Positions 37,871-64,000 of a stretch of DNA of 64,000 bases are shown one piece after another. The DNA is taken from assembly GCA_000092065.1 (NCBI GenBank), contig CP000594.1. One strand, given 5' to 3'. This stretch comes from Ostreococcus lucimarinus (lineage: Eukaryota). The notes under the pieces were generated by a model that saw nothing but the letters and a program-made list of their open reading frames with translations, was not told the origin of the DNA and did not search any database. A program made the translations under genes and the position numbers. The number at the start of each line of letters is the position of its first letter. The stretch's first letter is position 1.

Positions 37871-38366
37871 CCCGGTGTCCCGCGCGCGCATGCGTTGGCG
37901 CCGTCGACACTCGTCGACGCCCCGGCCCGCGGTCGTTCGCGTCCACACGGTTCAAGTAGTGCCCTTGGACGACGAACGTGCGCTTGTGCACCCTTGCGCG
38001 GATGAAGTGCGTTTCCATCGTGCGTCGCCGCCGTTCGGTCCTTTAAGGGCGACCGTAGCGCAACCGGGCGATCTCCGTGCGGACGGCGCGATGCCGGCGT
38101 ACGCATCGCAAGGAGTGCACACCGGGGGCACTGCGCCATTCGCGACGTACCGTGCAGCACAACACGCGTTTGCAACGCCAGACGGCATGCATTGGCGCGG
38201 TGGACGCAGCGTTTCATTGAAAATTGCGCGCAGCACTAGTGGGCAAAGCGGCTCGTTGGCACCCCAACGGGTCTTAAACACAATACTTGTTTTGTTCGGA
38301 TACTCGCCCAGGGATCTAGACACACGTGAGGGTAGTCGAAGGGCTAGCGTCCGGTGCCAAAAGAAC

Positions 38367-41300
38367 ATGCTCTTTGCTACGGCCACGTGGATGCTGCTAT
38401 TGCTCACGTCGTTTGTCGATGGGGCAATAGTAGACCGCGACGCTTTGAAAGTTGCAGTGGACAACTGTTTGGCGGCAAATGCCACTGGTAACTGCGATTG
38501 TAGCAGTGACTCTGTGGACTGCGGTACCGCTGGAAGTCTTCCCATCTCGCAGTGGGATACGAGCCGCGTGAACGATATGAATAGACTATTCAGCAACCAG
38601 GGTTCATTTAACGCGAATATCTCCGCGTGGGACGTGAGCGGCGTGACGGACATGACTCGAATGTTCGAGGGCGCTAATAGTTTCGCTCAGGACATCAGCT
38701 CGTGGAACGTGGTGAACGTCACGAGCATGGACACTATGTTCTATCGCGCGGATGCGTTCAACGCGCCCATCGGCAGTTGGAACACAGACGGCGTGACAAA
38801 CATGTTTCAGATGTTCCACTCAGCACATTTGTTCGATCAACCGATCGGAAGCTGGAACACGGAACGGGTGACGACCATGCAGTGTATGTTCATGTATGCG
38901 CGTGAATTCAATCAGGATATCAGCTCCTGGAACACGGCCAACGTGGTAAATATGTGGGATATGTTTTATAGTGCGGATGCGTTCAACCAGAACATTGGGT
39001 CATGGAACACAGAGGAGGTGACGGATATGAGGTACATGTTTTATAGTGCGGATGCGTTCAACCAGAACATTGGGTCATGGAACACAGAGAAGGTGACGGA
39101 TCTGAGCGGAATGTTTCAGGGCGCAGCGGCGTTCAACCAGGACATTGGCTCATGGAACACAGAGGAGGTGACAGACATGAGCGGAATGTTTCAGGGCGCA
39201 GCGGCGTTCAACCAGGACATTGGTTCATGGACGACGACGTCGGTGAAGAACATGGAGAGCATGTTCGAGGATGCGACGGCGTTCAACCAGAACATTAGCT
39301 CCTGGAACGTCAGTGCCGTCACAGACTTCGATCGGATGTTCTACACAGCGACCGCCTTCAACAAAGGCATAATCACCACGAAAACGACATGGACTGGCGC
39401 CACCGGCGCGTCCGCGACAGACATGTTCTCCGCCGCCACGGCGTGGCTGCAGAGGTATGAGTACACGACGAATCCCAGCGGAAGCGTCGTGAATGGTCCC
39501 GCGTCGGCTTGGAGTGTGAAGAAGTGTTCGTCCAATCAGTACGTTTTGAGCAACACATGCAAGGCGTGTGCCTCTGGCAAATTTCGCAGTGCTGGTGACG
39601 ACCCTGATGGCTCCAATACGGCGTGTACGTACGCGTCGCCGTTTGCTTCAAATACCCAGCTGAAAGACACGATCGAGTCTTCGTACTGCTTGGGAGGCAG
39701 CGACGCCACGGGCGCGAATTGCACGGACGGCAAGGGTATGTATATAGCGCAGTGGGATACGAGCTTGATCACGGATATGAATCACTTGTTCTACAACAAA
39801 ATTTCATTCGACGCCAATATCAGCACGTGGAACACGGCGAAAGTGACAAAAATGGATAGCATGTTTTCTCAAGCACGTGCATTTAACCAGAGGATTAATG
39901 AATGGAATACATCGAGCGTGGTGACAATGGAAGCTATGTTCCGCTACGCCGAGTCCTTTGACCAGCCCATTGGTGAGTGGAATACCGGAAGAGTCACCAA
40001 TATGAAAGACATGTTTTCGCAGGCGTCTGAATTCAATCAGAATATCGGTAATTGGGATACATCGAGTGTGACGACGATGGATACTATGTTTCGCTACACC
40101 GAGTCCTTTAACCAGCCCATTAGTGAGTGGAATACCGGAAGAGTCACCAATATGAAAGACATGTTTTCGCATGCGTACGCATTCAATCATTCAATCGGTG
40201 ACTGGAACACGGGTGCCGTGGAGAATATGGAGCTTATGTTCCAAAATACCGGCGTTTTCAACCAGGACATCAGCAGTTGGAACACGGCGGCGGTGACTCA
40301 GATGGACTCAATGTTTTACGGTGCTTCAGCCTTCAATTATGACATCACTGGTTGGAGTTCAGCAAGCCTTACGTCGTCGACGGACATGTTTCTCTCCGCG
40401 ACGGCTTGGCTGGCGAGGTACAAGAACACCGCCTCCCCAGGTAGCAAAAATGGGCCATCGTCGAACTGGCTCGGTCCCGGTCCGTTCACGACCAAGTCGG
40501 CGTTGGAGACCGCTACATGGAACTGCTTGGCGGGGAGCGCCGATGCCGATGGCAACTGCGACTGTACGACCGTCGATTGTGGCGCGGCGGTGTATGAATC
40601 GATTTCGAACTGGAACACGAGTTTGATCACGGACATGACCGGTTTGTTTGAAGGTAAGTCTTCATTCAACGCGAATATCGGCGGATGGAACACGGGGAGC
40701 GTCACAAACATGCACCAGATGTTTAACGGCGCGACTGCTTTCAACCAAGACATCGGTTCTTGGGATGTCTCGGATGTAGCGGACATGTATCAAATGTTCG
40801 GTAGCGCGTCCTCGTTCAATCAAAACATTGGGTCGTGGAACACAGGCAGTGTGACGGATATGAGCGGTATGTTCATGAATGCATCTGCGTTTAACCAGCC
40901 CGTTGGTGACTGGAACACAGGCAGCGTCGTGGATATGAGCGGCATGTTTGAGAGCGTGTCTGCGTTTAACCAGCCCATTGGTGAGTGGAATACCGGAAGA
41001 GTCACCAATATGAAAGAAATGTTTTCGCAGGCGTCTGAATTCAATCAGAATATCGGTAATTGGGATACATCGAGTGTGACGACGATGGATACTATGTTTC
41101 GCTACACCGAGTCCTTTAACCAGCCCATTAGTGAGTGGAATACCGGAAGAGTCACCAATATGAAAGACATGTTTTCGCATGCGTACGCATTCAATCATTC
41201 AATCGGTGACTGGAACACGGGTGCCGTGGAGAATATGGAGCTTATGTTCCAAAATACCGGCGTTTTCAACCAGGACATCAGCAGTTGGAACACGGCGGCG

Positions 41301-44300
41301 GTGACTCAGATGGACTCAATGTTTTACGGTGCTTCAGCCTTCAATTATGACATCACTGGTTGGAGTTCAGCAAGCCTTACGTCGTCGGCGAGCATGTTTC
41401 TCGACGCGCCGGCTTGGCTGGCGAGGTACAAGAACACCGTCGCCTCTGGTAGCAAAAATGGGCCATCGTCGAACTGGCTCGGTCCCGGTCCGTTCACGAC
41501 CAAGTCGGCGTTGGAGACCGCTACATGGAACTGCTTGGCGGGGAGCGCCGATGCCGATGGCAACTGCGACTGTACGACCGTCGATTGTGGCGCGGCGGTG
41601 TATGAATCGATTTCGAACTGGAACACGAGTTTGATCACGGACATGACCGGTTTGTTTGAAGGTAAGTCTTCATTCAACGCGAATATCGGCGGATGGAACA
41701 CGGGGAGCGTCACAAACATGCACCAGATGTTTAACGGCGCGACTGCTTTCAACCAAGACATCGGTTCTTGGGATGTCTCGGATGTAGCGGACATGTATCA
41801 AATGTTCGGTAGCGCGTCGTCGTTCAATCAAAACATTGGGTCGTGGAACACAGGCAGTGTGACGGATATGAGCGGTATGTTCATGAATGCATCTGCGTTT
41901 AACCAGCCCGTTGGTGACTGGAACACAGGCAGCGTCGTGGATATGAGCGGCATGTTTGAGAGCGTGTCTGCGTTTAACCAGCCCATTGGTGAGTGGAACA
42001 CAGGTAGCGTGGCGGATATGAACGGTATGTTCAGGAGCGCATCCGCGTTTAACGAGCCCGTTGGTGCATGGAACACAGGCAGCGTGACGGATATGAGCGG
42101 CATGTTTGAGAGCGTGTCTGCGTTTAACCAGCCCATTGGTGAGTGGAACACAGGTAGCGTGGCGGATATGAACGGTATGTTCAGGAGCGCATCCGCGTTT
42201 AACCAGCCGATTGGTGAGTGGGCCACAGGAAGCGTGGCGGATATGAGCGGCATGTTTGAGAGTGCATCCGCGTTTAACCAGCCGATTGGTGAGTGGGACA
42301 CAGACAGCGTGACGGATATGAGCAGCATGTTTGAGAGCGCGTCTGAATTCAATTATAACATCACTGATTGGAGTTCAGCTAGTCTCACGACGGACATGTT
42401 TCTCGATGCGACAGCTTGGCTGGGAAGATTTGCACGCAAAGATGGCGAAGACACCACTGATGGCCCACCATCCAAGTGGGGCGAACCGTGTGGCAATGAG
42501 TGGTACGATGCGACCTTTGAGGAGAAGTGTGAGCCAAGAGTGAACGGGATTGAAGTGAAAGGATGCAATTCTACGTGCGGGATAAAAGACAACTGGCGGT
42601 GCGACAATTTCGACTTGCTACGCCCCCCCGGTGATGACTTAGATAGCTACAATTGTACGTGCGACAACCCGGCGGGCACGTACGCATCGCCTGATCTTGA
42701 TTGTGCTCGCACAGATTGCATTTACGGCGAGCGGTGTCTCGCTAACGGCCTAGGCTGTGCGCCCGGTGCCGGTGGAAACGCATGCGACCGGTGTTTGACG
42801 GCCGCTGATATTGCCGAGCTTCCACTCAACGAACGAAGTCTCAGCAAGAATGGCTATTACAAGACTGGGCAGATGTGCACGGCTTGTCCAGAGACATCGG
42901 CTGGTCAACTTTTCGCTGCGGCTGCGGTTGTCGTCGTCCTCGCTTTTTGTGGTTTCAAAGCCTCTCAATTGATGGGCGCTCAAGCGACGAACAATTTGAA
43001 GAAAATTGTCGAGTCGCTGCAGTTCTTCTCTCTTTCGCTCAGTATGAGTATCAAGTGGCCTGGACCCGTACTCAATCTCGGTAAATATTTGGAAGCTTTC
43101 ACGTTCAGTATTGAGTTTCTACGACCCGAATGCGTCGCTACGGGGCTGAATTGGCTCAATATATTTTTGTCCTCAGTGTTTTTCGTTCCCGCTCTCATCT
43201 TCATAATCATCGTCGTGAACAATAGACGGGCGAAGCACCGTTACAAAACAACGGTGCGCGCGATCGACAGTGAACGACACGAGGATGGCGAAACAGTCTA
43301 CTGGATCAAGAAACCAGGTTTCTTGTGGGGTACGCGGAGAGCTTACGAGTCCAAGGGTGGAGATAAGATTGTTCGCGAGTTGCAGCGCCAGTATCGGTTT
43401 CGAGCCGCGCTTCGATCTTTCGGCGTACTGTCGCTGACCGTCCTATACCTTCCCATCGTGCGTATGTGCCTTCAGTCATACGATTGCATAAAGATAGACG
43501 GCGTGGATGGGCTTCGATTGGAGCATGACATAGATATCCTCTGTGAAAGCGAAGGGCACGTGATCATCCAGGCCGCCGCCGCGGTGATGTTGGCCATTGT
43601 CGGTATCGGCATGCCAATTTACGTCATAATGCAAGTTCGTAAGATCCGTTTGAGCGGTAAACTGGATGATCCACAGACTATCGACTCGTATGGTCCGTTC
43701 TACGACGTCTACCGGCGCGAGGAGCTCACACACGATCACAAATTGGAGATTGCGAGCATTCGACAAACCGCGGTCGAGTCGTCCTCATTTCGACGAGGCG
43801 AAGGCACGAGCGACGAACGTCCTTTCGATGCAGCAACTGATGATATTGCAGAAGAAATCGCAAATGAAGCCAGGGTCGATACGGAAGAAGATTCAAGCGA
43901 CGTTGATCGTGTTGACGTCGAGGACGATAGTGATACTCCACCACCTCAGAAAGTTGCATCCGGTCTCGGTAAGCTCGCTCGGGCGTTAACGATGACGAAG
44001 TCTGCTTTAGGCCGGACGACGTCAGCGAAAGCGCGCGAACGGGCACATCGAATGCACTGGAAGGACAGGTTCGCGCTTCACTACCTGGCCGTTGAACTAG
44101 TGCAGAAGAGTTGCGTCATTTTGACGACGTCTCCGCTAGTGGCCGAAACCGCGGTGAGCGGTTGGGCTCTGGTTGTCGTACACTGGTTTACCGGCGCCTT
44201 CGTCTACGTGTGTCAGCCTTGGCGCATCATGACGCTCGGCTTCGGCAAATACAAGGTGCGAAATTGCTTAAACAAAGTCGAGTCCTTGGCTGGATTTTTG

Positions 44301-44597
44301 CAGGGCGTGGGACCGTTCTTGGCGATGATCTTCCCTGTTCAGAGAAACGAGTTGGGCGAGGTGAAGCAAACTGTGACACTCTCAGCCATAACTGTCCTGC
44401 TGACCATCATAATCACCGGGCTGCTTTCTATTCGTATCATTGTTTTCGTCGGCGAACGCGTCGCCGTCAAACGAAAGAAGATGGACATTGACAAGGATCC
44501 CGAGAAATGCATGCAAAATGTTCACAAACAACTGGTCAAGCTCGCAACCAACAGAGCGATTGTGAGCATGTTGCTTTCAAGGCAGATTTCGACATAA
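38367..44597 (+). CDS. Giant (~2,076 aa) membrane protein. It has a signal peptide, >30 DUF285-type repeats (F-x-x-A-x-x-FNQ-x-I-x-x-W-N/D-T-x-x-V-T-x-M-x-x-MF), Cys-rich EGF-like modules, a multi-TM C-terminal region and an acidic tail.
   Basis: The track ORF starts at GTG 37875. The signal peptide [19 protein letters not shown] begins at ATG 38367. Example repeats: [33 protein letters not shown]…, [20 protein letters not shown]…. TMs [68 protein letters not shown]. Confidence 0.65.
   Translation: [2076 protein letters not shown]
39961..41976 (+). repeat. 1008-bp x2 near-identical (>99%) in-frame tandem duplication (336 aa = 13 DUF285 units) inside DUF285 gene 1
   Basis: ORF pairs are offset by exactly 1008 nt (40321..40626/41329..41634; 40337..40786/41345..41794). 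A direct read of 39961-40180 versus 40969-41188 shows 1-2 differences. Confidence 0.85.
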
Positions 44598-46499: not shown

Positions 46500-47045
46500 A
46501 GGAGATGAGCCTTCAAATTCGGGGCGATGGCTCACAAATCAGGCAAGGGAAGACAGGTGCACGTGCAAACTCTCAGCGGAAAGAGTTCATCGTCTCGAAG
46601 ATCTCGGTGTTTGGTGAGACAAACTCGACACACAGCAGGAGCACTTCACTGCCTGAGTGTACAGAAGATGTAACTAGCCTGAAGCGTTCGACCGTTGAGA
46701 CCTCAAGTTTTGGTGCCCTCGCTTAAGATTTCTTCAGAATAGAATCTCTGAAAGCAAGGGATGCTCAAAGCAGCAAAAATGACTTCCTACTACGGGCCAC
46801 ACAGGACGCCGAGCCCGATTTCTCTGTGCGTTCCGACCCCCCTTAACAGCGGACCCTTGGGTCTTAAGAAATTTCAACCTTTAAGGTTATAGGTTATATA
46901 GGTTATAGGTTTATTTATAAAGTTTACATGTGACGTTTTTTTTCAAAAATGGAAAAAAAAGTGACGGAGAGAAAGTTCCTCACAGGACCTCCAACCACTA
47001 AACCCATAACCGGTCACTCTTCCTCGCCCCGTTCTTTGATACACG
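46500..47045. repeat. Dispersed repeat R, copy 2, inverted relative to 12440-12955
   Basis: See 12440-12955. Confidence 0.75.
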
Positions 47046-47261
47046 TTCGCCCCACGACGGTTCGACCTGAAATTTTTTTCGGTTTGGCTTCGAACCCGAG
47101 CTTGGTCAGCGCGCGTCCGATGAGCATCTTGCTCACGGTGCAGCCGTTAAAAATATCAACTTTTTTGTTTCAGTTGGGGCACCCCAACATGATAAAACGC
47201 TCATCGACGTTGATGTACCGCATGTACGATTTCTTCAGAACCAATCGTTCGAGTGAAGTGG

Positions 47262-51719: not shown

Positions 51720-51751
<32 letters not shown>

Positions 51752-51753
51752 GC

Positions 51754-51759
<6 letters not shown>

Positions 51760-51786
<27 letters not shown>

Positions 51787-55400: not shown

Positions 55401-58400
55401 TGCGCATGTTGGATACATCGCAGGTCGTCGACACGGGTGAATTCAAACCAGAAAACATGGAATCAGCATCGACGTTTGATCCGAAACTCCATGAGATGTT
55501 GACATCCGTGCACTCAGAACCCTTCATCATTGCCTTGATATCATTGGCAGAGTCTAGTTTCCACGCGCTCGCTTGACGAAGAATGGGTGGTTTTGAGAAA
55601 GCAAACGCGGATTGCATCTTCTGAACTCGTTTAGGATCCCATTTGCCAAGACCGTCGATGGCGTCGTGACCAATCCGAGCAAATGCAAGCTCCATGCTCT
55701 TCACATTCCTCACGTCCCAAGAACCAATATCGCCGATGCGTCCTTGATTTGTCATTTTGAAGAATATTCCGTCCATGTTGGTGACCGAGGAGACATCCCA
55801 ATGTTTGAACATATTGTGCCAATCACGCCCCAGACCACTGAAGGTGAACCGCATGCTCCGCACGCTACTTACATTCCACGCACCCAAGTTACCAAAAGTC
55901 GCTCCCGGTAGAATGACCACAGTGCGTGGAACATCTAATCTGAAACGCGTTTCGGAATGCGAAGATGCCTTCCATTCTCCCGTATCATTGAAATACCGTT
56001 CTCCATATCTGAAAATGTGGTAATTATAGCGCTGCATGAACATTGCATCCATGTTCACGACTGAACTCGTGTTCCACTGTGACAAGTCGCCCACGTCGCC
56101 TTCAAAATCCTCAAACATCGCACCCATGTCCGTCACGGAGCTCACGTCCCATCTCGACAGGTCACGTGAAAAGTTGGGCGCGTCCTTGTATGCAGCACCA
56201 AACTCTCCAGGGCTTGCTTGAAAGAATTTCCATCGCAAACATACGTAGCCGAACGTTCGGTAATGTCCCGGAAACGCGGCTTGGTCAAACTGAAAGTGGT
56301 TAACAGTACCAATTTTGAACGCGTACGACATGTCGGTTACTCGCGAGACATCCCATTCTGACATCGGCCCGTATCTCAATTCGCATGTCGTTAAATTCTT
56401 TCTGCATGCGATGATCGCGGTATAGAAATCATCATCTGTACGAGTCAAGTTGAGTGGTTTGGATACCAGAGCGCTCAAAAGTCGGCGTCCAAGTGGAAGC
56501 CGAACAGGATCGTCGATACTTTTACCCAAACGTGCGCTGACGCTCATCGCCGGCGACTTGGCGGAGGTGAGCTCCTCTTCGAGCCTTCGCAGCTTGGCCC
56601 GCAAACCTACAAGCCCTCGGTTCCTCGGATTGCGAGCCTCGATCCGCGCAATTTTTGTGCGGAGCTTTGTCATTTCCGGCGTCGGGCTCGGTGGCGGCGG
56701 GCTCGGACTTGTCGACGGCGTGTCGCCGAAGAGCTCCTCTTCGAGCCTTCGCAGCTTGGCCCGCAAACCTACAAGCCCTCGGTTCCTCGGATTGCGAGCC
56801 TCGATCCGCGCAATTTTTGTGCGAAGCTTTGTCATTTCCGGCGTCGGGCTCGGTGGCGGCGGGCTCGGACTTGTCGACGGCGTGTCGCCGAAGAGCTCCT
56901 CTTCGAGCCTTCGCAGCTTGGCCCGCAAACCTACAAGCCCTCGGTTCCTCGGATTGCGAGCCTCGATCCGCGCAATTTTTGTGCGGAGGTTTGTCATTTC
57001 CGGCGTCGGGCTCGGTGGCGGCGGGCTCGGACTTGGTGTAGTCGTCAGATAATCGATCGATGAGCTCGGCGATTGACTCGGACTCGGCGAGCTCTTCTCT
57101 TCGTCAGCGTCCTCCTCTTCGTCAGCATGTTCGACTTCGTCTTTGTCTGCCTCTTCGTCCTCCTCTTCGTCTGCATTGTAAGGCGATGGACTCGGACTCG
57201 GCGAGCTCTTCTCTTCGTCAGCGTCCTCCTCTTCGTCAGCATGTTCGACTTCGTCTTTGTCTGCCTCTTCGTCCTCCTCTTCGTCTGCATTGTAAGGCGA
57301 TGGACTCGGACTCGGCGAGCTCTTCTCTTCGTCAGCGTCCTCCTCTTCGTCAGCATCTTCGACTTCGTCTTTGTCTGCCTCTTCGTCCTCCTCTTCATCT
57401 GCATTGTAAGGCGATGGACTCGGACTCGGCGAGCTCTTCTCTTCGTCAGCGTCCTCCTCTTCGTCAGCATGTTCGACTTCGTCTTTGTCTGCCTCTTCGT
57501 CCTCCTCTTCGTCAGCATTGTAAGGCGATGGACTCGGACTCGGCGAGCTCTTCTCTTCGTCAGCGTCCTCCTCTTCGTCAGCATGTTCGACTTCGTCTTT
57601 GTCTACCTCTTCGTCCTCCTCTTCGTCAGCATTGTAAGGCGATGGACTCGGACTCGGCGCACTTGCTTGTGCGTCGATACCTGTATATTCTGGTTCATCG
57701 GATGGCGTGTAGTTCTGAAATGGTTCATACGAATCTGTGGTTGTATTCGTTTTACTCGACGCAGCACGATGACCGATGGTATCCGCGTCGACCTCAAAAC
57801 TAAAATTGCCATTAAGACGGAAACTGGACTCCTTAGAGTCAAGAATTGCTTGGTCGTCGTCACTCACGGATACTTTATCGAGAATTTTGAGCGAATGTAT
57901 CGTTGGTAGCGGAGCACCTAGTACACTGCGGCGTACGTCATGAAGACGATCGCGAGTGGACAGCAAACGACGGTGACTTGGGCTCGTGGCAGTACACATC
58001 TTGAACAGTTTCTCGTCGTGCAATGACGAATATAGTACCTTTTTGCTTCGGGCGAGCACATCAAAGCTTGAAGTAAGTAGCGCGTCTAAATGACTCGGTA
58101 TACCAACGCCCCTCACGGACGTTAACAATTCAAACGAAGAAGCTCGTGGCGGTAAACTTTTCAGCTTTTCACGCCTCGCCCACGGGAGAGGCTTGGCAAG
58201 GTCTACCATTTCTTCCTCACCGTCTTCATTTTCGCATTTCCCATCGTCGTCGTAGACGCACATTTGACAGGTTGTCTCGTTGATGCTTGCTACATACTTG
58301 AGCGGTAGTTCGGGCAGTACAATATTCTGTAAAAAGCCAGTCACGTTTCCCACGATACTCAAACCCTGCTCTGAATCGGGATATTTCCCCCAGAAATTGA

Positions 58401-61400
58401 GCACCGGTTTGACGTGAAGATCCAGAAGGGTCCCGAATCGACTCTTCACATCACGCGCACCGTGGAAATTACTCTTTGATCGGTTCACCATGGCGTACAA
58501 AGGCCGAAGCGCATCTGTTGGCTCGACAAGTCGAGTTTCACATTCACCCCATGCCGCGCGAATCAAATCTTCGTACACATACGTCACATCCGATGTGTTG
58601 AACCATTGGCGTTTGCAATTATGATTCAGCGTGTGCAGCATCCATTTTCGCGCTTCGATATCGCAGAACGGCCGAGTAACTTGAATGACATCCTCCATGA
58701 GAATTTTGTGTATCTCTGGGTCCTCTTTGCATTTTAATGTCATAGATACTGAGCGTATCATCTTGTAGAATGTGCTCGGGTAATACATCGCGTGTGGGCG
58801 AAATACGGCGTACACACGCTTGATGAGGGTTTGATTCGTGATTGACGCCACGTCGATGTGGTTAATGAGCGTCTCCCAAGCCTCGATGTTGTGTGGATTC
58901 GATTCTAACGCTGAGAGTAAAATCGCACCGACGCGATCGACAACTTGAGCGCCAGCATCCATGTACACGTTCTGGAACAAAAGCATCGCCAAGCGCGTCT
59001 CAACGTACGAATCCAACCCTTTGCTTACCGCTCTTGAAAGTGCACGGACATGGTCGACGGAAACGATGGCATTCTTCTTCACACCTGGCGCGTTACGATG
59101 TTCCAAAATACTCAACGTCGTTCTCGCAAACGTCGAGTTGGTGGGCCAATGCAGTGGTACCGTACGCCACAAGCGCGAGAGTTCATCAAATTTAAAGCTA
59201 ATACCTCCAGGAATGGCTCCCCTCTTTTTGGAAACTTTCGTCGGGATCCCGAGACATGTTTGCATACCGATGGACAGATAAGCGATCATCGCGGCGTCAC
59301 CGCCGTCTTGAGCGATCCGTGGAAGAGAATTCGGGTGCCAGTTTGACGCCTTGCATAGAGTTTCCGCGCGTTCGGTGACGTTTGCGTGATTCAACCTCAA
59401 CCAAGTTGTATTGAGATTCCTTCTGCTGGCAATGTGCATGCATTCACTCGTTGGAAAGTGCGCACCAGCGTGCATGGCTACGACTGGCCACGGAATTCGA
59501 CCAAAATTCATCGCTCCGTTGACGTTTGCATTCAACGTGCTGTGCATGTAGTGAATTGCCTGGAGCGGACTCGGATTCAATTCTCGACTTCCTGGCATGG
59601 CCAATGTCCCATTTATGAGCTTCTTCCTGATTTCACAGACATCGCCGACTTCTTCATCCCGAGACTGATCCAAAAGCGTTGAAGTAGAGTCTGCGATGAA
59701 ATTCATATGACGATAATTGAAAGCTGTCGCAAGGATAGCATCGGATATGTTCGCGGCATCACCTCTAAAATAATTTGCCAAATATCGCACGTGATCCAAC
59801 GCTTTCATGTGCGTCGGCATCGTTAGACTATAAAGTGCTTTTCGAAACGAAACGCCTTGGCTTAACTTGGTGTGTTCTATCCATTCCCAAATAGGGTCGC
59901 TCTGCGGTATTCTCGTCAGCCGCTTGCTGAGACGCTCGTTGGATTCGAGAACTTGTTTTGAAAGCGCCTCACTCCAAGCACCCTTTGCATTTTGAACAGC
60001 AATCAAGAGCTCGTCTTGTGGAAACGCTGTGAGGAAACCACGACGCATAAATGTGTGCTCAGCAGAAATGTCCGAACGTGATAGAGAGGACAAATCAAAT
60101 TGAAGATGATGAATGAGCCGACACGTACCCGCGGCCGCAAACCCAATGAAGACGAATCCTGGGCACTTGGGCGTGTTCATACACAGAGAAGAGCACACAT
60201 CGACGGACACAGACACCGGCGACACTGGATAACTCGTCATCGTCATTTGCGGGAGGAGAACAAAATGAGTTGCAGCCGCTCGTCGCGCTGTGGTGTTCCA
60301 TGCGTGCGGTAAATCCATGATCGGTGTTGACCCTGAGACGCTGATTCTCGGCCGCGAGCCTTTAAACAGATTTGAGGAGCACCCTGTCTGTTGTTCCGAG
60401 GGTTTTGTCACGGGGTCGCAGACGACATCGCAATGCGCGTCTTCGTCATCCCTTCGAACACACTCTACGTCACGAATACGGATGCCGTTGATGCACGCGC
60501 CCCACGTAGTTTTCACGCGCCAGGACGCGCCTACACATCTGGGAATCTGAACATCGCAAGCGCCAGTTTCACCGCGTGTCCAACCATTCAAGCAGGTACA
60601 CTTGTAGTCGTAAGTCCAAGGTTTCGTGTCGTGATAATGTTTCTCACATGCGCCATTCGCGCACGACGTTGCGCCTCTTCTGGTTAAAGAGCAAGCTTGA
60701 GGAGGACACTCTTCACGCGTGTTGCAACTCCGAATACTTTCTGGCCTCGCGAGGGGACATAGAGCGCTTCTGGCGAGAGTCCCATTGGCATACGTACACG
60801 ATAACGATCTGACTTGAAAGGGCCGAGCGTCGTAGTCCAAAGTAGCACACTGTGCGCTGCACTCGCCATATGGCATACTGATCCAGTCAGCGTCGTCTCG
60901 TGGAGGCGGCGCGTAACATTCACGTTCGCGAAAATCTGTCATGATTACCCCGTCAGGTCGAGGGACAAAGCAACATCCATGATCTTCGCATACCAAAGCA
61001 CGAACTTCAGGGCTCGTGGAGCCCCGTCGATCATCGCTCTCGTAGCCAGCACACACCATTCTTCCGGAGTCTTGTCTACACTGCGCATCGCAATGGAAAT
61101 GATTACAGAATTCCTTTTCAGTAGGCTTTTCTGCGTGCGTACAGTGATCATCGGGCAGCGTTATATTTGTGCCTCTTTCGTCTTCGTGCGAGCACCAGAC
61201 CCTACGAATGCGCACTCCACCACCACACGATTTGGAACAAGAGGTAAAAGGGGAGGATTTCCAACGCACGAATTTGAGCTTTGTGAAGAAGCTTGACTGG
61301 ACGGAACTCACCACGAATTCGCGTAGGCCGTCGATCGTGACTGGGTGTTCGTACTCGACATTCGTGTACAACGTTGATCCAGATTCGCTCTCAATCGGCT

Positions 61401-64000
61401 TTGGTAAATCACTTCGTGAACGCACACCGTGAGGTTGTTCGGCGTCACCGCACGCAGATGACCATAAAGTACACTGTCCACTCGGCGAATATTCAGCCGC
61501 CGTGCACGAATTCTCTAGCGCGCATAGCGAAACGCATTCACTTGAAGAATTTGCATCTCGTGTCGCACCATTTCCAGTACAACGCTTCTTCAAGCATGAA
61601 CGAGAGAAAGTGCCATCCCGAACTAGGTCCGGCTCGGTAAATTCAATGGTCGCACACAATGGTATCACTTCACTAGGATTTTCCATCGGCGATCCGGACT
61701 TTTTAACTTGTCTTGTACCCCAAGTACCGTAGATTGGTGGGAGTGTGGGTATGACGTTATCCATCGCGCTCCAAAAGAAGCCAATCGCCACGCTATCAGC
61801 GTCGCACGCAAGATGATCGATATCGGAACTTTCCGGTATATCGTGCTCGGTGTAGTCCTTGACGCTGAATCCTGCCGGCACCCCGCATCGAGGCATGACA
61901 CCTGTAGTGTTTTCCGAAGATCCAAGAATGCCGGCAATACCGGTGAGGACTTGGCCGGGTGGACATAAAATACGAATCATACTTTCACCTCGATTGCGAT
62001 AGGCAGCGTTAACACTACGAGGTTTCCATCCATCGGTGTTGTAAATCTTGTTGCCTTGAGCGCTACCGCTTAAAACCTCTCCGGTAGTGGGATCAGTATA
62101 TCCATAGCCTGAAGTGAGGCTCAACGGGTGCGCCAACATACGCGATGTCATACCATGAATCTCCCCATTGAATCCAGGCCAATGTTGGAACTCTGTGTAT
62201 CTTTCGCTTGAAACGCACAAAGAGCTGCGAAGACGAAGTCGACACGTGCGGCGTAAGTGCTCAGAGCCAACGTTTAGGAATGGCACACCACTGGAAGTGC
62301 GATAACTTCCTCCAAAACGATTAACTCCATTGTCACCGAATGTGTTGGCCTTGGCCTGAAAAGCCATCCACAGCGAGTTGTCGCACGCAATCGCGTCCAC
62401 GGGCGCGTGCCAATCATCGGTGAGCATTTGAACTTCGCCACCCCTAAATCGTGTGTTATGCGATGCCTTCTCGCGTCCAAAAGGTCTGGTCCATTGCTCC
62501 TTGACTATAGCTTCGCATTCGCAGTAACCCCATCGGGAAAGCTTTTTGTTTGTGAAACAAGCTAGACGCGTACGATTTGGATCAATGTCTATAGAACACT
62601 GCGGATTAATCACGTCAGCGTTGCGTGGGTCTCTACTGAACATGACGTTACACGGAGCGCCATTCGCGTTTCCACCACAGGTTCGTCTCGGTTTCGCTTG
62701 ATACAGTCCCCCCTTAATTTTAGTGACGCTTCGAGGGGCGGCGCACTTTTGCGATTCGTCAAGCGATCCAGGAACATCATCTGATTCTGTGATGACAACC
62801 GAGACGTTTGCAAGTCGACCTCGGTTTTCTTCAGACGCGTACGGATATACAATAACTTTGGAAATGTCGACAACCCGACCAAGATCAATCATGAGGAAGT
62901 TTTGAGGGGTGTCCATCCGCATCGTGCTATAACGTTGCCATGTGCTATAACGTTGCCATGATATAGCACGATCGCTATATCCCGGTGATTTCTCCCCGTC
63001 GATGAGTGCAGGCCAATTTCCGGTTGCAGGCCAATTTCCGGTTCCGGTTGCGCTGATGGCAACATTCTCACCATTTTTGTCAATGATTTCCAATTCAGCA
63101 ATGTAGTAGCGGTACTCTCTACAACAAGAATTCCTCCAAGAGCTGCAGCAACTGTACGCGTACGTTTGATGATCTCCAGGTTTGACGTGCTTCCGCACGA
63201 TGACGTATCGTCCCCGTCCCCCCGCCACGGTGTAGTTGTCGTGAACGCCACTCAACTCACGAGTAACGCAGGGGGCATGAGTACGCATGTTCTCTTTGAC
63301 GCAGGAATCAAGCCCACTACGCCGTGGTATTTTTTCACTTGTTGAGCCGATGAACACGCCCCCCGTGGGAGGCGAGAAAGAGCCAGTTCGCTGGGCGGGA
63401 AGAAAATCGAATATTTGACCGTCTCCAGAATGCACGCTGTAATGACGGTCTTCGACGCCATCAATATGATCAGTTCGATCACCTTCAGCACGAAGGTATT
63501 CCAAATTGGAATTCCGCACGTATCGGCGCTGAGCCATTCCGTATGGTTTCCGACCAAACACGTGCATTGACATGAAGAAGTTCCGTAAACGTCTAAAGGA
63601 GACAGCAGAGACGTTGAAGAAATGAGCTCGGAATCCAGCCAGGCCCTCTGGAAGCTCTTGATCAAATCCAGCGGGAATTTGAATAACTCTGCGAGACGCA
63701 TACGTTTCATTTACCGAAGGATACCAATCCCAGTCTTCTCTTCGTGCAATTGTATCGAAATAAAATTCGTGCAAGGCTGATGGTACCTTGTGCAGAACGT
63801 AATTTTCACCACGTAGTCGACAGAACCGTTGAATAAGTCCGCGTTCGTCGACGCTGTCGGCGTGTACGAATTCGCCCTTGAGCCAAGAGTGAGGCATATG
63901 CGTTCTCAACTGCGACCCGTCGTGATTCATCTCATCGAGAGAAAGCGCGCTCGGACCGTAATCAAATCCGACGCACAGCGCATTCGCCTTGCAGCGTTGC
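52438..64000 (-). CDS. Giant (>3,850 aa, 5' end beyond the window) type-I membrane protein. The N-terminal ectodomain has a discoidin/F5-8-type-C-like module, a PAN/apple-like module and TSP1 repeats. This is followed by a large helical region, acidic 40-aa x5 and basic 54-aa x3 tandem repeats, and a C-terminal block of ~35 DUF285 repeats. It ends in a TM (TLTLYLAMFTFVAFVAIV) and a short tail.
   Basis: The listed ATG at 63930 is internal: the frame stays open upstream to 64000 (…QRCKANALCVGFDYGPSALSLDE-M…), and no signal peptide is seen. TSP1: SPFTSCSKSCGGGVRIRRVWCS. Discoidin-like: NFLMIDLGRVVDISKVIVYPYASEENRGRLANVSVV. PAN-like: CVSLCALENSCTAAEYSPSGQCTLW. DUF285 units: e.g. FKGRDQFDGDISAWDVSSVTFMLRMFQGASSFNQDIGNWDVRNVYNMEGMF. 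Confidence 0.7.
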   Translation of the reverse strand, partial: QRCKANALCVGFDYGPSALSLDEMNHDGSQLRTHMPHSWLKGEFVHADSVDERGLIQRFCRLRGENYVLHKVPSALHEFYFDTIARREDWDWYPSVNETYASRRVIQIPAGFDQELPEGLAGFRAHFFNVSAVSFRRLRNFFMSMHVFGRKPYGMAQRRYVRNSNLEYLRAEGDRTDHIDGVEDRHYSVHSGDGQIFDFLPAQRTGSFSPPTGGVFIGSTSEKIPRRSGLDSCVKENMRTHAPCVTRELSGVHDNYTVAGGRGRYVIVRKHVKPGDHQTYAYSCCSSWRNSCCREYRYYIAELEIIDKNGENVAISATGTGNWPATGNWPALIDGEKSPGYSDRAISWQRYSTWQRYSTMRMDTPQNFLMIDLGRVVDISKVIVYPYASEENRGRLANVSVVITESDDVPGSLDESQKCAAPRSVTKIKGGLYQAKPRRTCGGNANGAPCNVMFSRDPRNADVINPQCSIDIDPNRTRLACFTNKKLSRWGYCECEAIVKEQWTRPFGREKASHNTRFRGGEVQMLTDDWHAPVDAIACDNSLWMAFQAKANTFGDNGVNRFGGSYRTSSGVPFLNVGSEHLRRTCRLRLRSSLCVSSERYTEFQHWPGFNGEIHGMTSRMLAHPLSLTSGYGYTDPTTGEVLSGSAQGNKIYNTDGWKPRSVNAAYRNRGESMIRILCPPGQVLTGIAGILGSSENTTGVMPRCGVPAGFSVKDYTEHDIPESSDIDHLACDADSVAIGFFWSAMDNVIPTLPPIYGTWGTRQVKKSGSPMENPSEVIPLCATIEFTEPDLVRDGTFSRSCLKKRCTGNGATRDANSSSECVSLCALENSCTAAEYSPSGQCTLWSSACGDAEQPHGVRSRSDLPKPIESESGSTLYTNVEYEHPVTIDGLREFVVSSVQSSFFTKLKFVRWKSSPFTSCSKSCGGGVRIRRVWCSHEDERGTNITLPDDHCTHAEKPTEKEFCNHFHCDAQCRQDSGRMVCAGYESDDRRGSTSPEVRALVCEDHGCCFVPRPDGVIMTDFRERECYAPPPRDDADWISMPYGECSAQCATLDYDARPFQVRSLSCTYANGTLARSALCPLARPESIRSCNTREECPPQACSLTRRGATSCANGACEKHYHDTKPWTYDYKCTCLNGWTRGETGACDVQIPRCVGASWRVKTTWGACINGIRIRDVECVRRDDEDAHCDVVCDPVTKPSEQQTGCSSNLFKGSRPRISVSGSTPIMDLPHAWNTTARRAAATHFVLLPQMTMTSYPVSPVSVSVDVCSSLCMNTPKCPGFVFIGFAAAGTCRLIHHLQFDLSSLSRSDISAEHTFMRRGFLTAFPQDELLIAVQNAKGAWSEALSKQVLESNERLSKRLTRIPQSDPIWEWIEHTKLSQGVSFRKALYSLTMPTHMKALDHVRYLANYFRGDAANISDAILATAFNYRHMNFIADSTSTLLDQSRDEEVGDVCEIRKKLINGTLAMPGSRELNPSPLQAIHYMHSTLNANVNGAMNFGRIPWPVVAMHAGAHFPTSECMHIASRRNLNTTWLRLNHANVTERAETLCKASNWHPNSLPRIAQDGGDAAMIAYLSIGMQTCLGIPTKVSKKRGAIPGGISFKFDELSRLWRTVPLHWPTNSTFARTTLSILEHRNAPGVKKNAIVSVDHVRALSRAVSKGLDSYVETRLAMLLFQNVYMDAGAQVVDRVGAILLSALESNPHNIEAWETLINHIDVASITNQTLIKRVYAVFRPHAMYYPSTFYKMIRSVSMTLKCKEDPEIHKILMEDVIQVTRPFCDIEARKWMLHTLNHNCKRQWFNTSDVTYVYEDLIRAAWGECETRLVEPTDALRPLYAMVNRSKSNFHGARDVKSRFGTLLDLHVKPVLNFWGKYPDSEQGLSIVGNVTGFLQNIVLPELPLKYVASINETTCQMCVYDDDGKCENEDGEEEMVDLAKPLPWARREKLKSLPPRASSFELLTSVRGVGIPSHLDALLTSSFDVLARSKKVLYSSLHDEKLFKMCTATSPSHRRLLSTRDRLHDVRRSVLGAPLPTIHSLKILDKVSVSDDDQAILDSKESSFRLNGNFSFEVDADTIGHRAASSKTNTTTDSYEPFQNYTPSDEPEYTGIDAQASAPSPSPSPYNADEEEDEEVDKDEVEHADEEEDADEEKSSPSPSPSPYNADEEEDEEADKDEVEHADEEEDADEEKSSPSPSPSPYNADEEEDEEADKDEVEDADEEEDADEEKSSPSPSPSPYNADEEEDEEADKDEVEHADEEEDADEEKSSPSPSPSPYNADEEEDEEADKDEVEHADEEEDADEEKSSPSPSQSPSSSIDYLTTTPSPSPPPPSPTPEMTNLRTKIARIEARNPRNRGLVGLRAKLRRLEEELFGDTPSTSPSPPPPSPTPEMTKLRTKIARIEARNPRNRGLVGLRAKLRRLEEELFGDTPSTSPSPPPPSPTPEMTKLRTKIARIEARNPRNRGLVGLRAKLRRLEEELTSAKSPAMSVSARLGKSIDDPVRLPLGRRLLSALVSKPLNLTRTDDDFYTAIIACRKNLTTCELRYGPMSEWDVSRVTDMSYAFKIGTVNHFQFDQAAFPGHYRTFGYVCLRWKFFQASPGEFGAAYKDAPNFSRDLSRWDVSSVTDMGAMFEDFEGDVGDLSQWNTSSVVNMDAMFMQRYNYHIFRYGERYFNDTGEWKASSHSETRFRLDVPRTVVILPGATFGNLGAWNVSSVRSMRFTFSGLGRDWHNMFKHWDVSSVTNMDGIFFKMTNQGRIGDIGSWDVRNVKSMELAFARIGHDAIDGLGKWDPKRVQKMQSAFAFSKPPILRQASAWKLDSANDIKAMMKGSECTDVNISWSFGSNVDADSMFSGLNSPVSTTCDVSNMRTIGITNFRSMFSSRYRTTRLPSGFASWDTSSATSMEMMFKGVRFGKIPSEISHWNVRKVKNMREMFSRVVVPDFPDVTSWSTASLEVSTKMFDGITEFQMEFYRDPLAVGGKSDGPPIVWKRKHVNIENAVFYDAIEECLSEDPKYGDCSGFRHGCMSGWDVSRVTDMREAFKGRDQFDGDISAWDVSSVTFMLRMFQGASSFNQDIGNWDVRNVYNMEGMFYGASKFAQDISKWDSASLDRLGSANMFGLATAWLEACTREGHERRRTWSLSGPVSKWTCKPRTCLEYNTKIGYKWGRDKDGKYGRHAIYGDVDCVGLAKKPNRASPAKCTVPTTSKNSTNSSTFAEVHQGNFLYAVGKCLETHPTDGACVDSKYGAMSTWNTSGVFDMSEAFSGARDFNGNIENWNVASVTSMFRMFYGARRFRGSLKLWNVAQVEDMNQMFSNAYKFNGDLGDWNVRSVTDFYKMFDDAWMFDADITNWGRGEAAVRGEYVCLAQHATSQSTVLQPIVGDMFLNAAAWKVKYALKDEVRVTKWFSHYARGRRSSFDFKLVSISKSNMRHGPPCNWKPKIAETKVMEHIDNDNIDDIIDKCLEVDPVGGMCRDLQFGTMETWDVSRVTNMNELFQNRRDFNASIGSWNVAQVGTMVKMFQYATSFDQDLSSWNVKKVQNMQYMFNGARAFSRDLRKWTWDVSSVTTAYGMFHSTYFLNPSYRSPSFAENIKEKQVNTHRSDHQQFIDLFAYSGTAQGLSPLRGDRSSLYQVIRSCRSQESARSNCMGSNFSKYSYCCRFGPLNMVDTSEVRNFRSLFQTHYDSLNGVGSTAATIISAWNTASATDMSEMFAYNRNFNQNLSDWNVSNVKSFHRMFAFAKSFNQDLNSWVLSADANVDEMFRGVANFNVSFTRNWKNAEQRSKALELCECNAVQQSRARLGAPRPFTLTLYLAMFTFVAFVAIVRRKSRRAPINECDAVFVGSRAYDYGSTLESSR
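56540..57665 (-). repeat. In-frame coding tandem repeats of giant gene 2. 162-bp x3 (56551-57036; basic/coiled-coil unit …KLRTKIARIEARNPRNRGLVGLRAKLRRLEEEL…) and 120-bp x5 (~57065-57665; acidic unit SSPSPSPSPYNADEEEDEEADKDEVEHADEEEDADEEK).
   Basis: Periods measured between repeated strings (gacggcgtgtcgccgaagagc every 162 nt; cgagctcttctcttcgtcagcg every 120 nt). They produce the spurious ORFs 56450..57052, 57045..57584, 57060..57803 and 57073..57909. Confidence 0.85.

What the first reader, a model, noticed from the sequence alone, without database searches (positions are those of the whole stretch)
37875..64000. Two convergent giant DUF285-repeat membrane proteins, one combining discoidin/PAN/TSP1 modules
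The DUF285 26-residue repeat (classically Mycoplasma lipoproteins, also marine protists) builds >30 units in each of two genes that face each other across the selfish-element copy. Gene 2 additionally carries metazoan/apicomplexan-style adhesion modules (TSP1 'CSKSCGGG', discoidin, PAN) and long acidic/basic tandem repeats. Both are flanked by the same telomere-motif-containing repeat. Together this looks like a rapidly evolving surface-adhesin locus.
Basis: partly seen in the sequence, partly recalled or inferred. Interest (0 to 1): 0.6.

Follow-up and report, generated by a model that had tools for sequence, protein, structure and literature searches.

The report
Giant repeat-rich algal surface protein genes
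Two very large, real genes of the tiny marine green alga Ostreococcus lucimarinus encode modular cell-surface proteins built from 25-residue DUF285/PARCEL repeats (one also with animal-style TSP1 and PAN adhesion modules), and their repeat numbers and genomic arrangement differ between wild strains; this kind of protein was already known in the alga, but these architectures and this variability had not been described.

Summary
The window is nuclear DNA of Ostreococcus lucimarinus CCE9901. The core observation holds: two convergent, intronless giant ORFs carry DUF285 (= PARCEL, TIGR02167) repeats, far above Pfam and NCBIfam thresholds.

Corrections:
- The repeat period is 25 residues, not 26.
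- Gene 1 has 39 units. Gene 2 has only about 19-24, many degenerate.
- Gene 1 does not end at 44597. A missing T at about 44575 splits it from its 630-aa coiled-coil tail (to 46399). All environmental alleles are unbroken.
- Gene 2 runs off the window end. An orthologue extends about 4 kb further.
- TSP1 is solid (70 bits), PAN is borderline but backed by homologues, and discoidin is only sub-threshold.
- The 'telomere repeat' is a 158-nt, 83% repeat next to isolated AAACCCTAA motifs, not an array.

New findings:
- Gene 1 belongs to a family with a conserved multi-pass membrane plus coiled-coil chassis and interchangeable ectodomains. The chassis has no Pfam, PDB-sequence or fold match.
- Metagenomic alleles show 25, 27, 37 or 39 units.
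- Gene 2 tandem-repeat counts also vary.
- dN/dS of 0.2-0.8 in most comparisons (one low-divergence value of 1.3) shows both genes are selected coding sequence.
- Synonymous divergence is usually higher than in the neighbouring PAP gene, by up to about tenfold.

Most likely these are variable surface adhesion/recognition proteins. The ligand is unknown. Interest is moderate.

The parts
38367..44597 (+). Gene 1, first reading frame (2076 aa from the likely start MLFATATWMLLLL...): signal peptide, four DUF285 blocks, Cys-rich stalk, multi-pass membrane domain
   Evidence: ORF list. Pfam DUF285 at 1409 bits. Full-length environmental allele P0293 starts at the same Met.
38553..39374 (+). Gene 1 DUF285 block 1: 11 units of 25 aa, preceded by a Cys-containing helical cap
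   Evidence: Unit HMM. AF2 model with pLDDT 75 and one short strand per 25 aa. All top 50 Foldseek PDB hits are LRR proteins, but weak (best E 5e-3).
39753..40349 (+). Gene 1 DUF285 block 2: 8 units
40611..41357 (+). Gene 1 DUF285 block 3: 10 units. Part of it is a 99% identical copy of block 2 (39957-40256 = 40965-41264). The whole block is absent from alleles P0061 and P0258.
41619..42368 (+). Gene 1 DUF285 block 4: 10 units (8 in allele P0293)
42492..42899 (+). Cys-rich stalk between the repeats and the membrane; no Pfam match
   Evidence: Translation. Conserved Cys columns in alignment A2. Pfam negative.
42900..44450 (+). Conserved multi-pass membrane domain ('chassis') with 7-8 hydrophobic helices and an acidic disordered loop
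44573..44576 (+). Frameshift site: the window reads ATG-TTGC where L004, L002 and L006 read ATGTTTGC (one T missing)
   Evidence: DNA alignment A4. Protein junction ...AIVSMFAFKADFDIK... is intact in all the full-length homologues inspected.
44577..46399 (+). Gene 1 cytoplasmic coiled-coil tail (about 600 aa), read in the second frame. The reference annotation holds it as a separate 555-aa 'predicted protein' ABO99588.
   Evidence: Homologues cover both parts in one ORF. dN/dS 0.18-0.31. Cluster member P0287 = ABO99588.1.
46900..52030 (.). Intergenic repeated element. Contains the 165-aa ORF 47262-47759(-), the Prim-Pol + DUF5906 / P4-type primase-helicase ORF 48183-50393(-), and the coiled-coil ORF 50696-51769(-).
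   Evidence: Pfam and NCBIfam. Repeats shared with 33900-37575. The same element follows gene 1 in L005.
37671..37828 (+). 158-nt repeat upstream of gene 1. Its 83% copy lies at 51864-52021, downstream of gene 2. Telo-box-like AAACCCTAA motifs lie next to it, not inside it.
52438..64000 (-). Gene 2: at least 3853 codons open to the window edge. It is a type I mosaic protein, and its 5' end lies outside the window.
   Evidence: ORF. Open frame at the window edge. Orthologue L007 is colinear at 91-94% and carries about 4.2 kb more upstream ORF with an extra PAN (20.5 bits, just below the 21.4 cut-off) and TSP1. dN/dS 0.28-0.39.
52537..52593 (-). Gene 2 C-terminal transmembrane anchor (FTLTLYLAMFTFVAFVAIV), followed by RRKSRR and a 33-aa tail
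   Evidence: hydropathy; translation
52681..56433 (-). Gene 2 DUF285 region: five blocks, 19-24 units. The membrane-distal block is degenerate with insertions. Each block has the same Cys cap as in gene 1.
   Evidence: Pfam at 538 bits; unit HMM; block alignment A3
56569..57035 (-). Basic, Pro-rich 54-aa tandem repeat: 2.9 copies here, 5.0 copies in L007
   Evidence: TRF
57068..57659 (-). Acidic 38-aa tandem repeat x 5.2. L007 has an 18-nt x 24 acidic array instead.
   Evidence: TRF
57660..60063 (-). Region of about 800 aa with no Pfam match. Its N-terminal part (to about aa 1570-1800) is conserved in homologues P0104, P0109, P0112, P0114 and in the L006 protein.
60073..60267 (-). PAN/Apple domain (aa 1222-1286)
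   Evidence: PAN_1 at 23.8 bits on a segment against a 21.4 cut-off, 18.0 bits on the whole protein. PAN is present in homologues.
60406..61263 (-). TSP1 repeat (aa 890-947), followed by two TSP1-like repeats and an EGF-like Cys module
   Evidence: TSP1_ADAMTS at 70 bits with 3 stretches. PDB hit to THSD7A TSP1 is sub-threshold (E 0.055). The EGF-like assignment is by eye only.
62521..62697 (-). Kringle/FN2-like Cys module (TCGGNANGAPC...WGYCEC)
   Evidence: Only weak Kringle hits in homologues P0134 and P0154 (15.6-16.9 bits against a 34.3 cut-off). 42% identical to the L006 protein.
62731..63084 (-). Possible galactose-binding-like (discoidin-like) domain; sub-threshold
   Evidence: F5_F8_type_C 14.9 bits and F5_F8_type_C_2 17.1 bits. 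The best two PDB sequence hits are an F5/8 type C protein (8ayr, E 0.027) and a fucolectin-related protein (2j22, E 0.31).

Best explanation
Both ORFs are genuine, selected protein-coding genes of Ostreococcus lucimarinus. They encode giant modular proteins displayed on the surface of a naked alga that has no wall and no scales.

Gene 1 (about 2,677 aa once the 1-nt frameshift is repaired) has these parts in order:
- a signal peptide;
- four capped blocks of 25-residue DUF285/PARCEL repeats, predicted to form LRR-like solenoids that act as the binding surface;
- a Cys-rich stalk;
- a conserved multi-pass membrane domain;
- a cytoplasmic coiled coil of about 600 aa.
This gives a receptor- or anchor-like protein that could couple outside binding to the cell interior.

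Gene 2 (>3,853 aa, 5' end outside the window) is a type I mosaic adhesin. Its distal part carries PAN/Apple, TSP1, EGF-like, kringle-like and possibly galactose-binding-like modules. Next come a region of about 800 aa with no Pfam match (its first half conserved in homologues), charged tandem repeats that would act as an extended spacer, five DUF285 blocks near the membrane, and a single anchor.

Variation arises mainly from unequal recombination among near-identical 75-nt units and whole blocks, and from exchange of whole ectodomains on the constant gene 1 chassis. The locus is bracketed by copies of a primase-helicase element and differs in arrangement between strains.

Shown here: domain content, membrane features, purifying selection, and allelic repeat-number and structural variation.
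Inferred: surface exposure, an adhesion/recognition role, signalling through the chassis, and the ligand (virus, mate, bacterium or particle), which is unknown.
For: Organism:
- Exact protein matches to O. lucimarinus CCE9901.

Domains:
- DUF285 at 1409 and 538 bits; TSP1_ADAMTS at 70 bits; PAN at 23.8 bits on a segment.
- TIGR02167 PARCEL repeat.
- 39 and 19-24 units respectively.

Fold:
- The AF2 model of block 1 (pLDDT 75) has one strand per repeat. All top 50 PDB Foldseek hits are LRR ectodomains (LGR5, LRIG1, internalins, TLRs), although weak.

Membrane features:
- Signal peptide, 7-8 helices, or a single anchor with a basic stop-transfer sequence.

One gene across the frameshift:
- Homologues are 100% colinear, and a single T is missing.

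Selection:
- Gene 1 coiled coil dN/dS 0.18-0.31.
- Gene 2 dN/dS 0.28-0.39 over 3,252 codons.
- PAP next door has dN = 0 and dS 0.003-0.01, against dS 0.006-0.13 in gene 1 and 0.07-0.11 in gene 2.

Variation:
- Alleles with 25, 27, 37 or 39 units.
- Ectodomain replacement in P0065 and P0078 on an 88% / 48% identical chassis.
- The gene 2 basic repeat has 2.9 versus 5.0 copies.
- Three genomic contexts.

Linkage of the two families:
- A gene-2-like TSP1 giant lies next to a gene-1 homologue in L006.

Prior description:
- The repeat was described in Ostreococcus as PARCEL (PMC2996958).
Against: - There is no direct evidence of transcription, translation or surface location.
- Gene 1 is frameshifted in this sequence. 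In this strain it may be truncated (losing the coiled coil), or the missing base may be a sequencing error.
- No signal peptide is visible for gene 2, because its start lies outside the window.
- The LRR-like fold rests on a medium-confidence model and weak Foldseek scores (best E 5e-3, TM about 0.2).
- The chassis has no recognisable fold, so 'receptor' is an inference from architecture alone.
- dN/dS is below 1 in all but one low-divergence comparison, so there is no sign of pervasive positive selection.
- Gene 2 was not found in JGI metagenome contigs. Elsewhere it appears only as fragments and on one long-read contig, so it may be rare.
Confidence: 0.7

Rival explanations
1. Virus-interface proteins. 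The variable ectodomains would be attachment receptors for, or decoys and shields against, prasinoviruses. Cassette turnover and presence/absence of gene 2 would then reflect a host-virus arms race.
For: - Repeat-number and ectodomain polymorphism, and higher dS than in the neighbouring PAP gene in most comparisons.
- Gene 2 is missing at the corresponding place in L005 and rare in metagenomes.
- DUF285 proteins are also amplified in an algal giant virus genome (38 DUF285 proteins among 384 coding regions in Kratosvirus quantuckense; PMC10720644).
- From my own knowledge: virus resistance in Ostreococcus is linked to hypervariable genomic regions and cell-surface changes.
Against: - No test was done here.
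- The locus lies on a 709-kb chromosome, and nothing here identifies it as the small outlier chromosome linked to viral immunity in O. tauri (my own knowledge).
- dN/dS is mostly below 1.
- Roske et al. found no PARCEL sequence in the OtV5 prasinovirus genome.
Confidence: 0.25
2. Mate- or cell-recognition proteins. The two linked, variable giant surface proteins would mediate gamete or self/non-self recognition, like the variable adhesion glycoproteins of other protists and algae.
For: - Adhesion-type modules (TSP1, PAN, LRR-like) are present.
- Gene-1-like and gene-2-like genes lie together in two different strains (window; L006).
- Divergent alleles coexist in nature.
Against: - From my own knowledge, the candidate mating-type region in Mamiellales is on the big outlier chromosome (chromosome 2). 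Nothing here links this locus to it.
- There are no two discrete allele classes. The alleles form a graded series of 25 to 46 units.
Confidence: 0.12
3. Decaying or selfish DNA. The ORFs would be passengers of mobile elements ('PARCEL' coding repeats spread by HGT) with no host function. Gene 1 would already be a pseudogene in this strain.
For: - Frameshift in gene 1.
- Primase-helicase element copies and 1-kb direct repeats bracket gene 1.
- The region has low GC (about 50-54%) compared with 57-72% in the first 10 kb of the window.
- Roske et al. argue that PARCEL ORFs are mobilised.
- Short in-frame micro-duplications sit inside the putative discoidin-like region of gene 2.
Against: - Uninterrupted ORFs of 6.2 kb and more than 11.5 kb.
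- dN/dS of 0.18-0.39 over thousands of codons, including the part downstream of the frameshift.
- All the full-length environmental alleles inspected are intact at the frameshift site.
- The chassis family is conserved down to 35% identity.
Confidence: 0.08
4. Ice-binding or other non-adhesive solenoid function, as has been suggested for polar diatom DUF285 proteins.
For: [quoted passage not shown] The repeat is predicted to be a regular solenoid.
Against: - From my own knowledge, O. lucimarinus CCE9901 is a temperate coastal strain.
- Both proteins are membrane-anchored mosaics with classical adhesion modules.
Confidence: 0.03

Closest known systems
PARCEL / DUF285 (PF03382, TIGR02167) repeat surface proteins, e.g. 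Mycoplasma mycoides LppQ/LppC; described also in Ostreococcus, Micromonas and Phaeodactylum (Roske et al. 2010, PMC2996958)
   Same: Both have tandem 25-residue amphipathic repeats that match the same HMMs, arranged in blocks separated by spacers. Both are predicted extracellular, attached to signal peptides or TM anchors. Repeat number and sequence are variable, and the genes are associated with mobile DNA.
   Different: - These are eukaryotic giants of 2.7 to more than 3.9 thousand residues, not lipoproteins.
- The repeats are fused either to a multi-pass membrane plus coiled-coil chassis or to TSP1/PAN/EGF-type modules.
- The nucleotide palindromes that gave PARCEL its name are not evident here: one short imperfect palindrome per 4 kb.
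Apicomplexan micronemal adhesins (TRAP/MIC family) and metazoan TSP1-repeat matrix proteins (own knowledge)
   Same: Type I membrane mosaics that combine TSP1 repeats with PAN/Apple and EGF-like modules on a long extracellular stalk with a short cytoplasmic tail, as in gene 2.
   Different: - There is no vWA/integrin-I domain.
- The membrane-proximal half is DUF285 solenoids.
- The protein is much larger, and the organism is a free-living green alga.
- No homology exists beyond the individual modules. The best true relatives are uncharacterised metagenomic proteins of 33-41% identity.
LRR-ectodomain 7TM receptors (LGR4/5, RXFP1) and adhesion GPCRs (own knowledge)
   Same: Gene 1 is laid out the same way: a large solenoid ectodomain, a Cys-rich hinge, several membrane helices and a cytoplasmic tail. 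LGR5 is the top Foldseek hit for the repeat block.
Variable surface-protein families of protists (Trichomonas/Entamoeba BspA-like LRR proteins, Giardia VSPs) (own knowledge)
   Same: Large, fast-changing repeat ectodomains on a conserved membrane-anchoring segment. Homologue P0065 carries a Cys-rich, VSP-like ectodomain on the gene 1 chassis.
   Different: The repeat family differs (DUF285, not LRR_5/BspA). This is a small family at a few loci rather than hundreds of genes, and there is no evidence of switching expression.

Membership tests
DUF285 / PARCEL repeat proteins (PF03382, TIGR02167) | Tandem 25-residue repeats matching the family HMMs above the curated cut-off | tested here: met
   PF03382 at 1409 and 538 bits (cut-off 25). 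TIGR02167 at 484 and 100 bits (cut-off 30). 75-nt periodicity. 39 and 19-24 units.
DUF285 / PARCEL repeat proteins (PF03382, TIGR02167) | Imperfect nucleotide palindromes within the repeat-coding tracts (the 'palindromic' part of the PARCEL definition) | tested here: inconclusive
   Only one short imperfect palindrome (19-21 nt, 76-79%) was found per roughly 4-kb tract, using an 8-nt seed and a 16-nt minimum. The method of Roske et al. was not reproduced.
DUF285 / PARCEL repeat proteins (PF03382, TIGR02167) | Repeats predicted to lie outside the membrane on a secreted or anchored protein | tested here: met
   Gene 1 has an N-terminal signal-like hydrophobic segment and downstream TM helices. 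Gene 2 has a C-terminal anchor plus basic residues after the repeats. This is prediction only.
Leucine-rich-repeat-like solenoid fold | Right-handed solenoid with one short beta-strand per repeat, and structural similarity to solved LRR proteins | tested here: inconclusive
   The AF2 model (pLDDT 75, pTM 0.74) shows one strand per 25 aa. All top 50 Foldseek PDB hits are LRR proteins, but E is at least 5e-3 and TM is 0.15-0.22. No solved structure was found by sequence.
Thrombospondin type 1 repeat (PF00090 / PF19030) | Cys-rich module of about 55 aa with a CSxxCGGG core, scoring above the curated cut-off | tested here: met
   TSP1_ADAMTS at 70.0 bits (cut-off 23.8) at aa 890-947, with 3 stretches in the segment scan. 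TSP_1 scores 21.6-24.1 bits (cut-off 21.6).
PAN / Apple domain (PF00024) | HMM score above the cut-off of 21.4 bits | tested here: inconclusive
   18.0 bits on the full protein, 23.8 bits on a 500-aa segment (aa 1222-1286). Homologues P0103 and P0107 score 23.9 and 29.6 bits. The L007 upstream extension scores 20.5 bits.
Discoidin / F5_F8_type_C (PF00754, PF22633) | HMM score above the cut-off (about 28 bits), or a confident fold match | tested here: not met
   14.9 and 17.1 bits. Allele fragment P0108 scores 14.0 and 15.4 bits. The PDB phmmer top hits are an F5/8-type-C protein and a fucolectin-related protein, but with E 0.027 and 0.31. No structure model was made, because no usable homologue alignment was available. 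A galactose-binding-like fold remains possible.
GPCR / adhesion-GPCR superfamily (for the gene 1 membrane domain) | 7TM bundle with sequence or fold similarity to GPCRs; a GAIN domain for adhesion GPCRs | tested here: not met

The most novel reading that the evidence does not exclude
Gene 1 would represent an undescribed class of algal surface receptors. A constant multi-pass membrane plus coiled-coil 'chassis', with no known fold, accepts interchangeable ectodomain cassettes (DUF285 solenoids, Cys-rich VSP-like arrays, others). Together with the linked TSP1/PAN/DUF285 giant and the flanking primase-helicase elements, it would form a hypervariable surface-identity locus outside the known outlier chromosomes. 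That locus would determine virus susceptibility or mate recognition in one of the ocean's most abundant picoeukaryotes.
Probability: 0.2. Interest if true: 0.7.

Novelty: new variant of a known kind. Interest (0 to 1): 0.45.

Why it matters
Ostreococcus is a naked cell about 1 micrometre across, and its surface molecules are essentially uncharacterised. That surface decides infection by prasinoviruses, grazing, aggregation and (unobserved) mating.

This locus offers concrete candidates. Gene 1 is split by a frameshift in the reference annotation, gene 2 has no exact model in the protein collection searched, and a third giant (G8) gene beside them also appears unannotated. Metagenomes already show natural allelic series in repeat number and ectodomain type.

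The locus also shows that DUF285/PARCEL repeats in eukaryotes are combined with metazoan-style TSP1 and PAN modules and with a conserved membrane domain of unknown fold. That gives a handle on the function of a widespread repeat that still lacks any solved structure or assay.

In practical terms, the result flags an annotation error (ABO99588 is the tail of a protein of about 2,677 aa) and a possible 1-nt error or strain-specific truncation in the reference genome.

Tried and rejected
- The word-indexed homologue search on gene 2 (aa 1-2000 and aa 255-654) returned nothing. This was a false negative: exhaustive HMMER found 372 hits, including 94-99% identical fragments.
- Exact look-ups of both giant proteins were not on record.
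- Two JGI metagenome scans for gene 2 found only pattern matches, none confirmed.
- Telomere arrays: none, even with 1 mismatch.
- PDB sequence search for DUF285: no solved relative.
- Palindromes in the repeat DNA: essentially absent.
- I considered and rejected these readings:
  - Giant-virus or bacterial origin of the window: a nuclear poly(A) polymerase is present, with exact matches to O. lucimarinus proteins.
  - Two separate genes for 37875-44597 and 44507-46399: homologues are colinear across both.
  - Fragmentation of the orthologues in L005 and L007 as evidence of pseudogenes: both are pilon-polished long-read contigs where every large gene is chopped into same-strand ORFs.
- Palenik et al. 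2007 (PMC1863510) is not held in the library.

Full report
**Origin of the window**

Several ORFs are exact matches to annotated proteins of Ostreococcus lucimarinus CCE9901, on a 708,927-bp chromosome record:
- poly(A) polymerase, 5910-7706(-);
- a DOMON protein, 9731-11800;
- a 490-aa protein, 32027-33499.

The region from about 10 kb onward has 47-56% GC, against 57-72% in the first 10 kb.

**Observation check**

Two giant ORFs converge on each other: 37875-44597(+) and 52438-63930(-).
- Pfam scores DUF285 at 1409 bits (gene 1) and 538 bits (gene 2), against a cut-off of 25.
- NCBIfam TIGR02167 'PARCEL repeat' is also far above its cut-off.
- The unit is 25 residues (75-nt spacing), not 26.
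- An HMM built from the gene 1 units finds 39 units in gene 1, in four blocks of 11+8+10+10. It finds only 19-24 in gene 2, many degenerate. So '>30 in each' holds only for gene 1.

Other modules of gene 2:
- TSP1_ADAMTS scores 70 bits at aa 890-947, with two further TSP1-like stretches.
- PAN_1 is borderline: 18.0 bits on the whole protein and 23.8 bits on a segment, against a cut-off of 21.4. Real homologues carry PAN at 24-30 bits.
- Discoidin is sub-threshold (14.9 and 17.1 bits). The two best PDB sequence hits are an F5/8-type-C protein and a fucolectin-related protein, but neither is significant.
- The acidic (114 nt x 5.2) and basic (162 nt x 2.9) tandem repeats are real.

The 'telomere-motif repeat' is a 158-nt, 83% repeat (37671-37828 / 51864-52021). 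Two TAAACCCTAAT motifs lie beside one copy and one inverted motif lies near the other. There is no array, and CCCTAA occurs only 6 times in the window, which by my estimate is no more than chance.

**Gene 1 is longer than reported**

I queried with the membrane part joined to the overlapping 630-aa ORF 44507-46399. This found 36 homologues, and the best of them cover 100% of the query in one protein.
- The junction reads ...AIVSMFAFKADFDIK... in the homologues.
- At the DNA level the window lacks one T of a TTT run at about 44575.
- The tail downstream of the shift is under purifying selection (dN/dS 0.18-0.31).
- In the reference it is annotated as a separate 555-aa 'predicted protein', ABO99588.

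The repaired gene (38367-46399, about 2,677 aa) reads, in order:
- signal peptide;
- four capped DUF285 blocks;
- Cys-rich stalk;
- 7-8 hydrophobic helices with an acidic loop;
- a coiled coil of about 600 aa.

**Fold evidence**

DUF285 block 1:
- The AF2 model has pLDDT 75 and pTM 0.74, with one short strand per repeat.
- All 50 best PDB Foldseek hits are LRR ectodomains, but the scores are weak.
- No solved DUF285 structure exists by sequence search.

Membrane 'chassis':
- The AF2 model has pLDDT 69 and pTM 0.63.

**Variation in gene 1**

Near-identical (>=98%) metagenomic alleles carry these unit counts:
- 9+8+8 (P0061);
- 11+8+8 (P0258);
- 11+8+10+8 (P0293);
- 11+8+10+10 in the window.

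More distant alleles carry 41-46 units. Block 3 of the window partly copies block 2 at 99% identity.

Other homologues keep the chassis but replace the ectodomain:
- P0065 (88% chassis identity) has a Cys-rich array with only four DUF285 units.
- P0078 (48%) has no DUF285 at all.

In four contigs where the PAP protein is identical (dS 0.003-0.01), gene 1 shows dS from 0.006 up to 0.13 and dN/dS of 0.2-0.8. One low-divergence comparison gives 1.3.

**Gene 2**

- The frame is open to base 64000.
- A long-read contig, L007, is colinear at 91-94% over 52040-64000. It carries about 4.2 kb more same-strand ORF upstream, with another TSP1 (36 bits) and a PAN hit just below cut-off (20.5 bits).
- dN/dS against L007 is 0.28-0.39 over 3,252 codons.
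- L007 has 5.0 copies of the basic repeat, and a differently organised acidic array.
- Exhaustive HMMER finds near-identical fragments, and true homologues at 33-41% identity with the same PAN-TSP1 order.
- The earlier null results were limitations of the search tool.
- JGI metagenome scans were negative.
- The protein ends in one TM helix, followed by RRKSRR and a 33-aa tail.

**Context**

- Between the genes lies an element with a Prim-Pol/DUF5906 primase-helicase ORF, 48183-50393(-). A truncated inverted copy lies at 33900-35345.
- One-kb direct repeats (36516-37575 / 47194-48180) bracket gene 1.
- The same element follows gene 1 in L005, but gene 2 is absent there.
- Contigs L001-L004 join window 46897 to the reverse complement of 9617, which is a different arrangement. 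Inverted repeats lie at 12437-12975 and 46512-47019.
- In L006 a 3,501-aa TSP1 protein sits in tandem upstream of a gene 1 homologue. It is 31% identical to gene 2 aa 646-1798.

**Interpretation**

Both genes are real and under selection. They encode modular surface proteins, and their variation comes mostly from repeat and cassette turnover. Adhesion/recognition is the best-supported role, but the ligand is unknown. The rival readings (virus interface, mating recognition, selfish or decaying DNA, ice binding) are ranked in the Rival explanations section.

The repeat family is already known in Ostreococcus as PARCEL (PMC2996958). The new points are:
- the two architectures;
- the chassis family with no known fold;
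- the annotation and frameshift problem in the reference;
- the population-level variation.

Noticed in passing
window 15070-26946 (+): A third giant intronless ORF (3,958 aa) with G8, CEMIP beta-helix and right-handed beta-helix domains lies about 11 kb upstream of gene 1. The accession numbering (ABO99582, then ABO99583) suggests it may have no model in the reference annotation.
   Followed up: partly
window 33900-37575 and 46900-52030: Two copies of an element encoding a Prim-Pol + DUF5906 (P4/D5-type) primase-helicase. The full ORF is at 48183-50393(-), and a truncated copy is at 34065-35345(+). The arms are 97% identical and inverted. One-kb direct repeats with a 165-aa ORF bracket gene 1. 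No capsid or integrase was recognised.
   Followed up: partly
window 9617 / 46897; inverted repeats at 12437-12975 and 46512-47019: Four environmental contigs (96-99% identical) join the 3' flank of gene 1 directly to the PAP side in inverted orientation. They skip the DOMON gene, the G8 gene and the first element copy, so the locus is structurally polymorphic or rearranged in CCE9901.
   Followed up: partly
window 5910-7706 and 9731-11800: The PAP and DOMON proteins each have two GenBank and two RefSeq accessions in O. lucimarinus (ABO99724/ABO99758; ABO99547/ABO99582). This implies a duplicated segment in the reference genome.
   Followed up: no
window 5634-5722 and 5724-5812: Two identical tandem 89-nt copies begin with a tRNA-like 5' half (GGGGTCTTAGCTCAGTGGTAGAGCGG...). 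ARAGORN calls no tRNA, and Rfam gives only a sub-threshold YrlA match (32.8 bits against a gathering score of 69).
   Followed up: partly
window 1-2000: GC is 72% in the first 2 kb, against 47-62% in the rest of the window. The cause was not examined.
   Followed up: no
window 51836-51862 and about 37857-37866: Plant 'telo-box'-like motifs: TAAACCCTAAT twice, 14 nt apart, and one inverted copy just upstream of the gene 1 ORF. They could be promoter elements (my own knowledge of the plant telo-box).
   Followed up: no
window 62900-63000 (-), gene 2 aa 300-335: Short in-frame tandem micro-duplications (TGNWPA-TGNWPA and WQRYST-WQRYST) sit inside the putative discoidin-like region. They suggest replication slippage in a part of the protein that tolerates change.
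   Followed up: no
loci L005 and L007: In the pilon-polished long-read metagenome contigs, both giant genes are broken into many same-strand ORFs. This most likely reflects residual indel errors rather than pseudogenes.
   Followed up: partly
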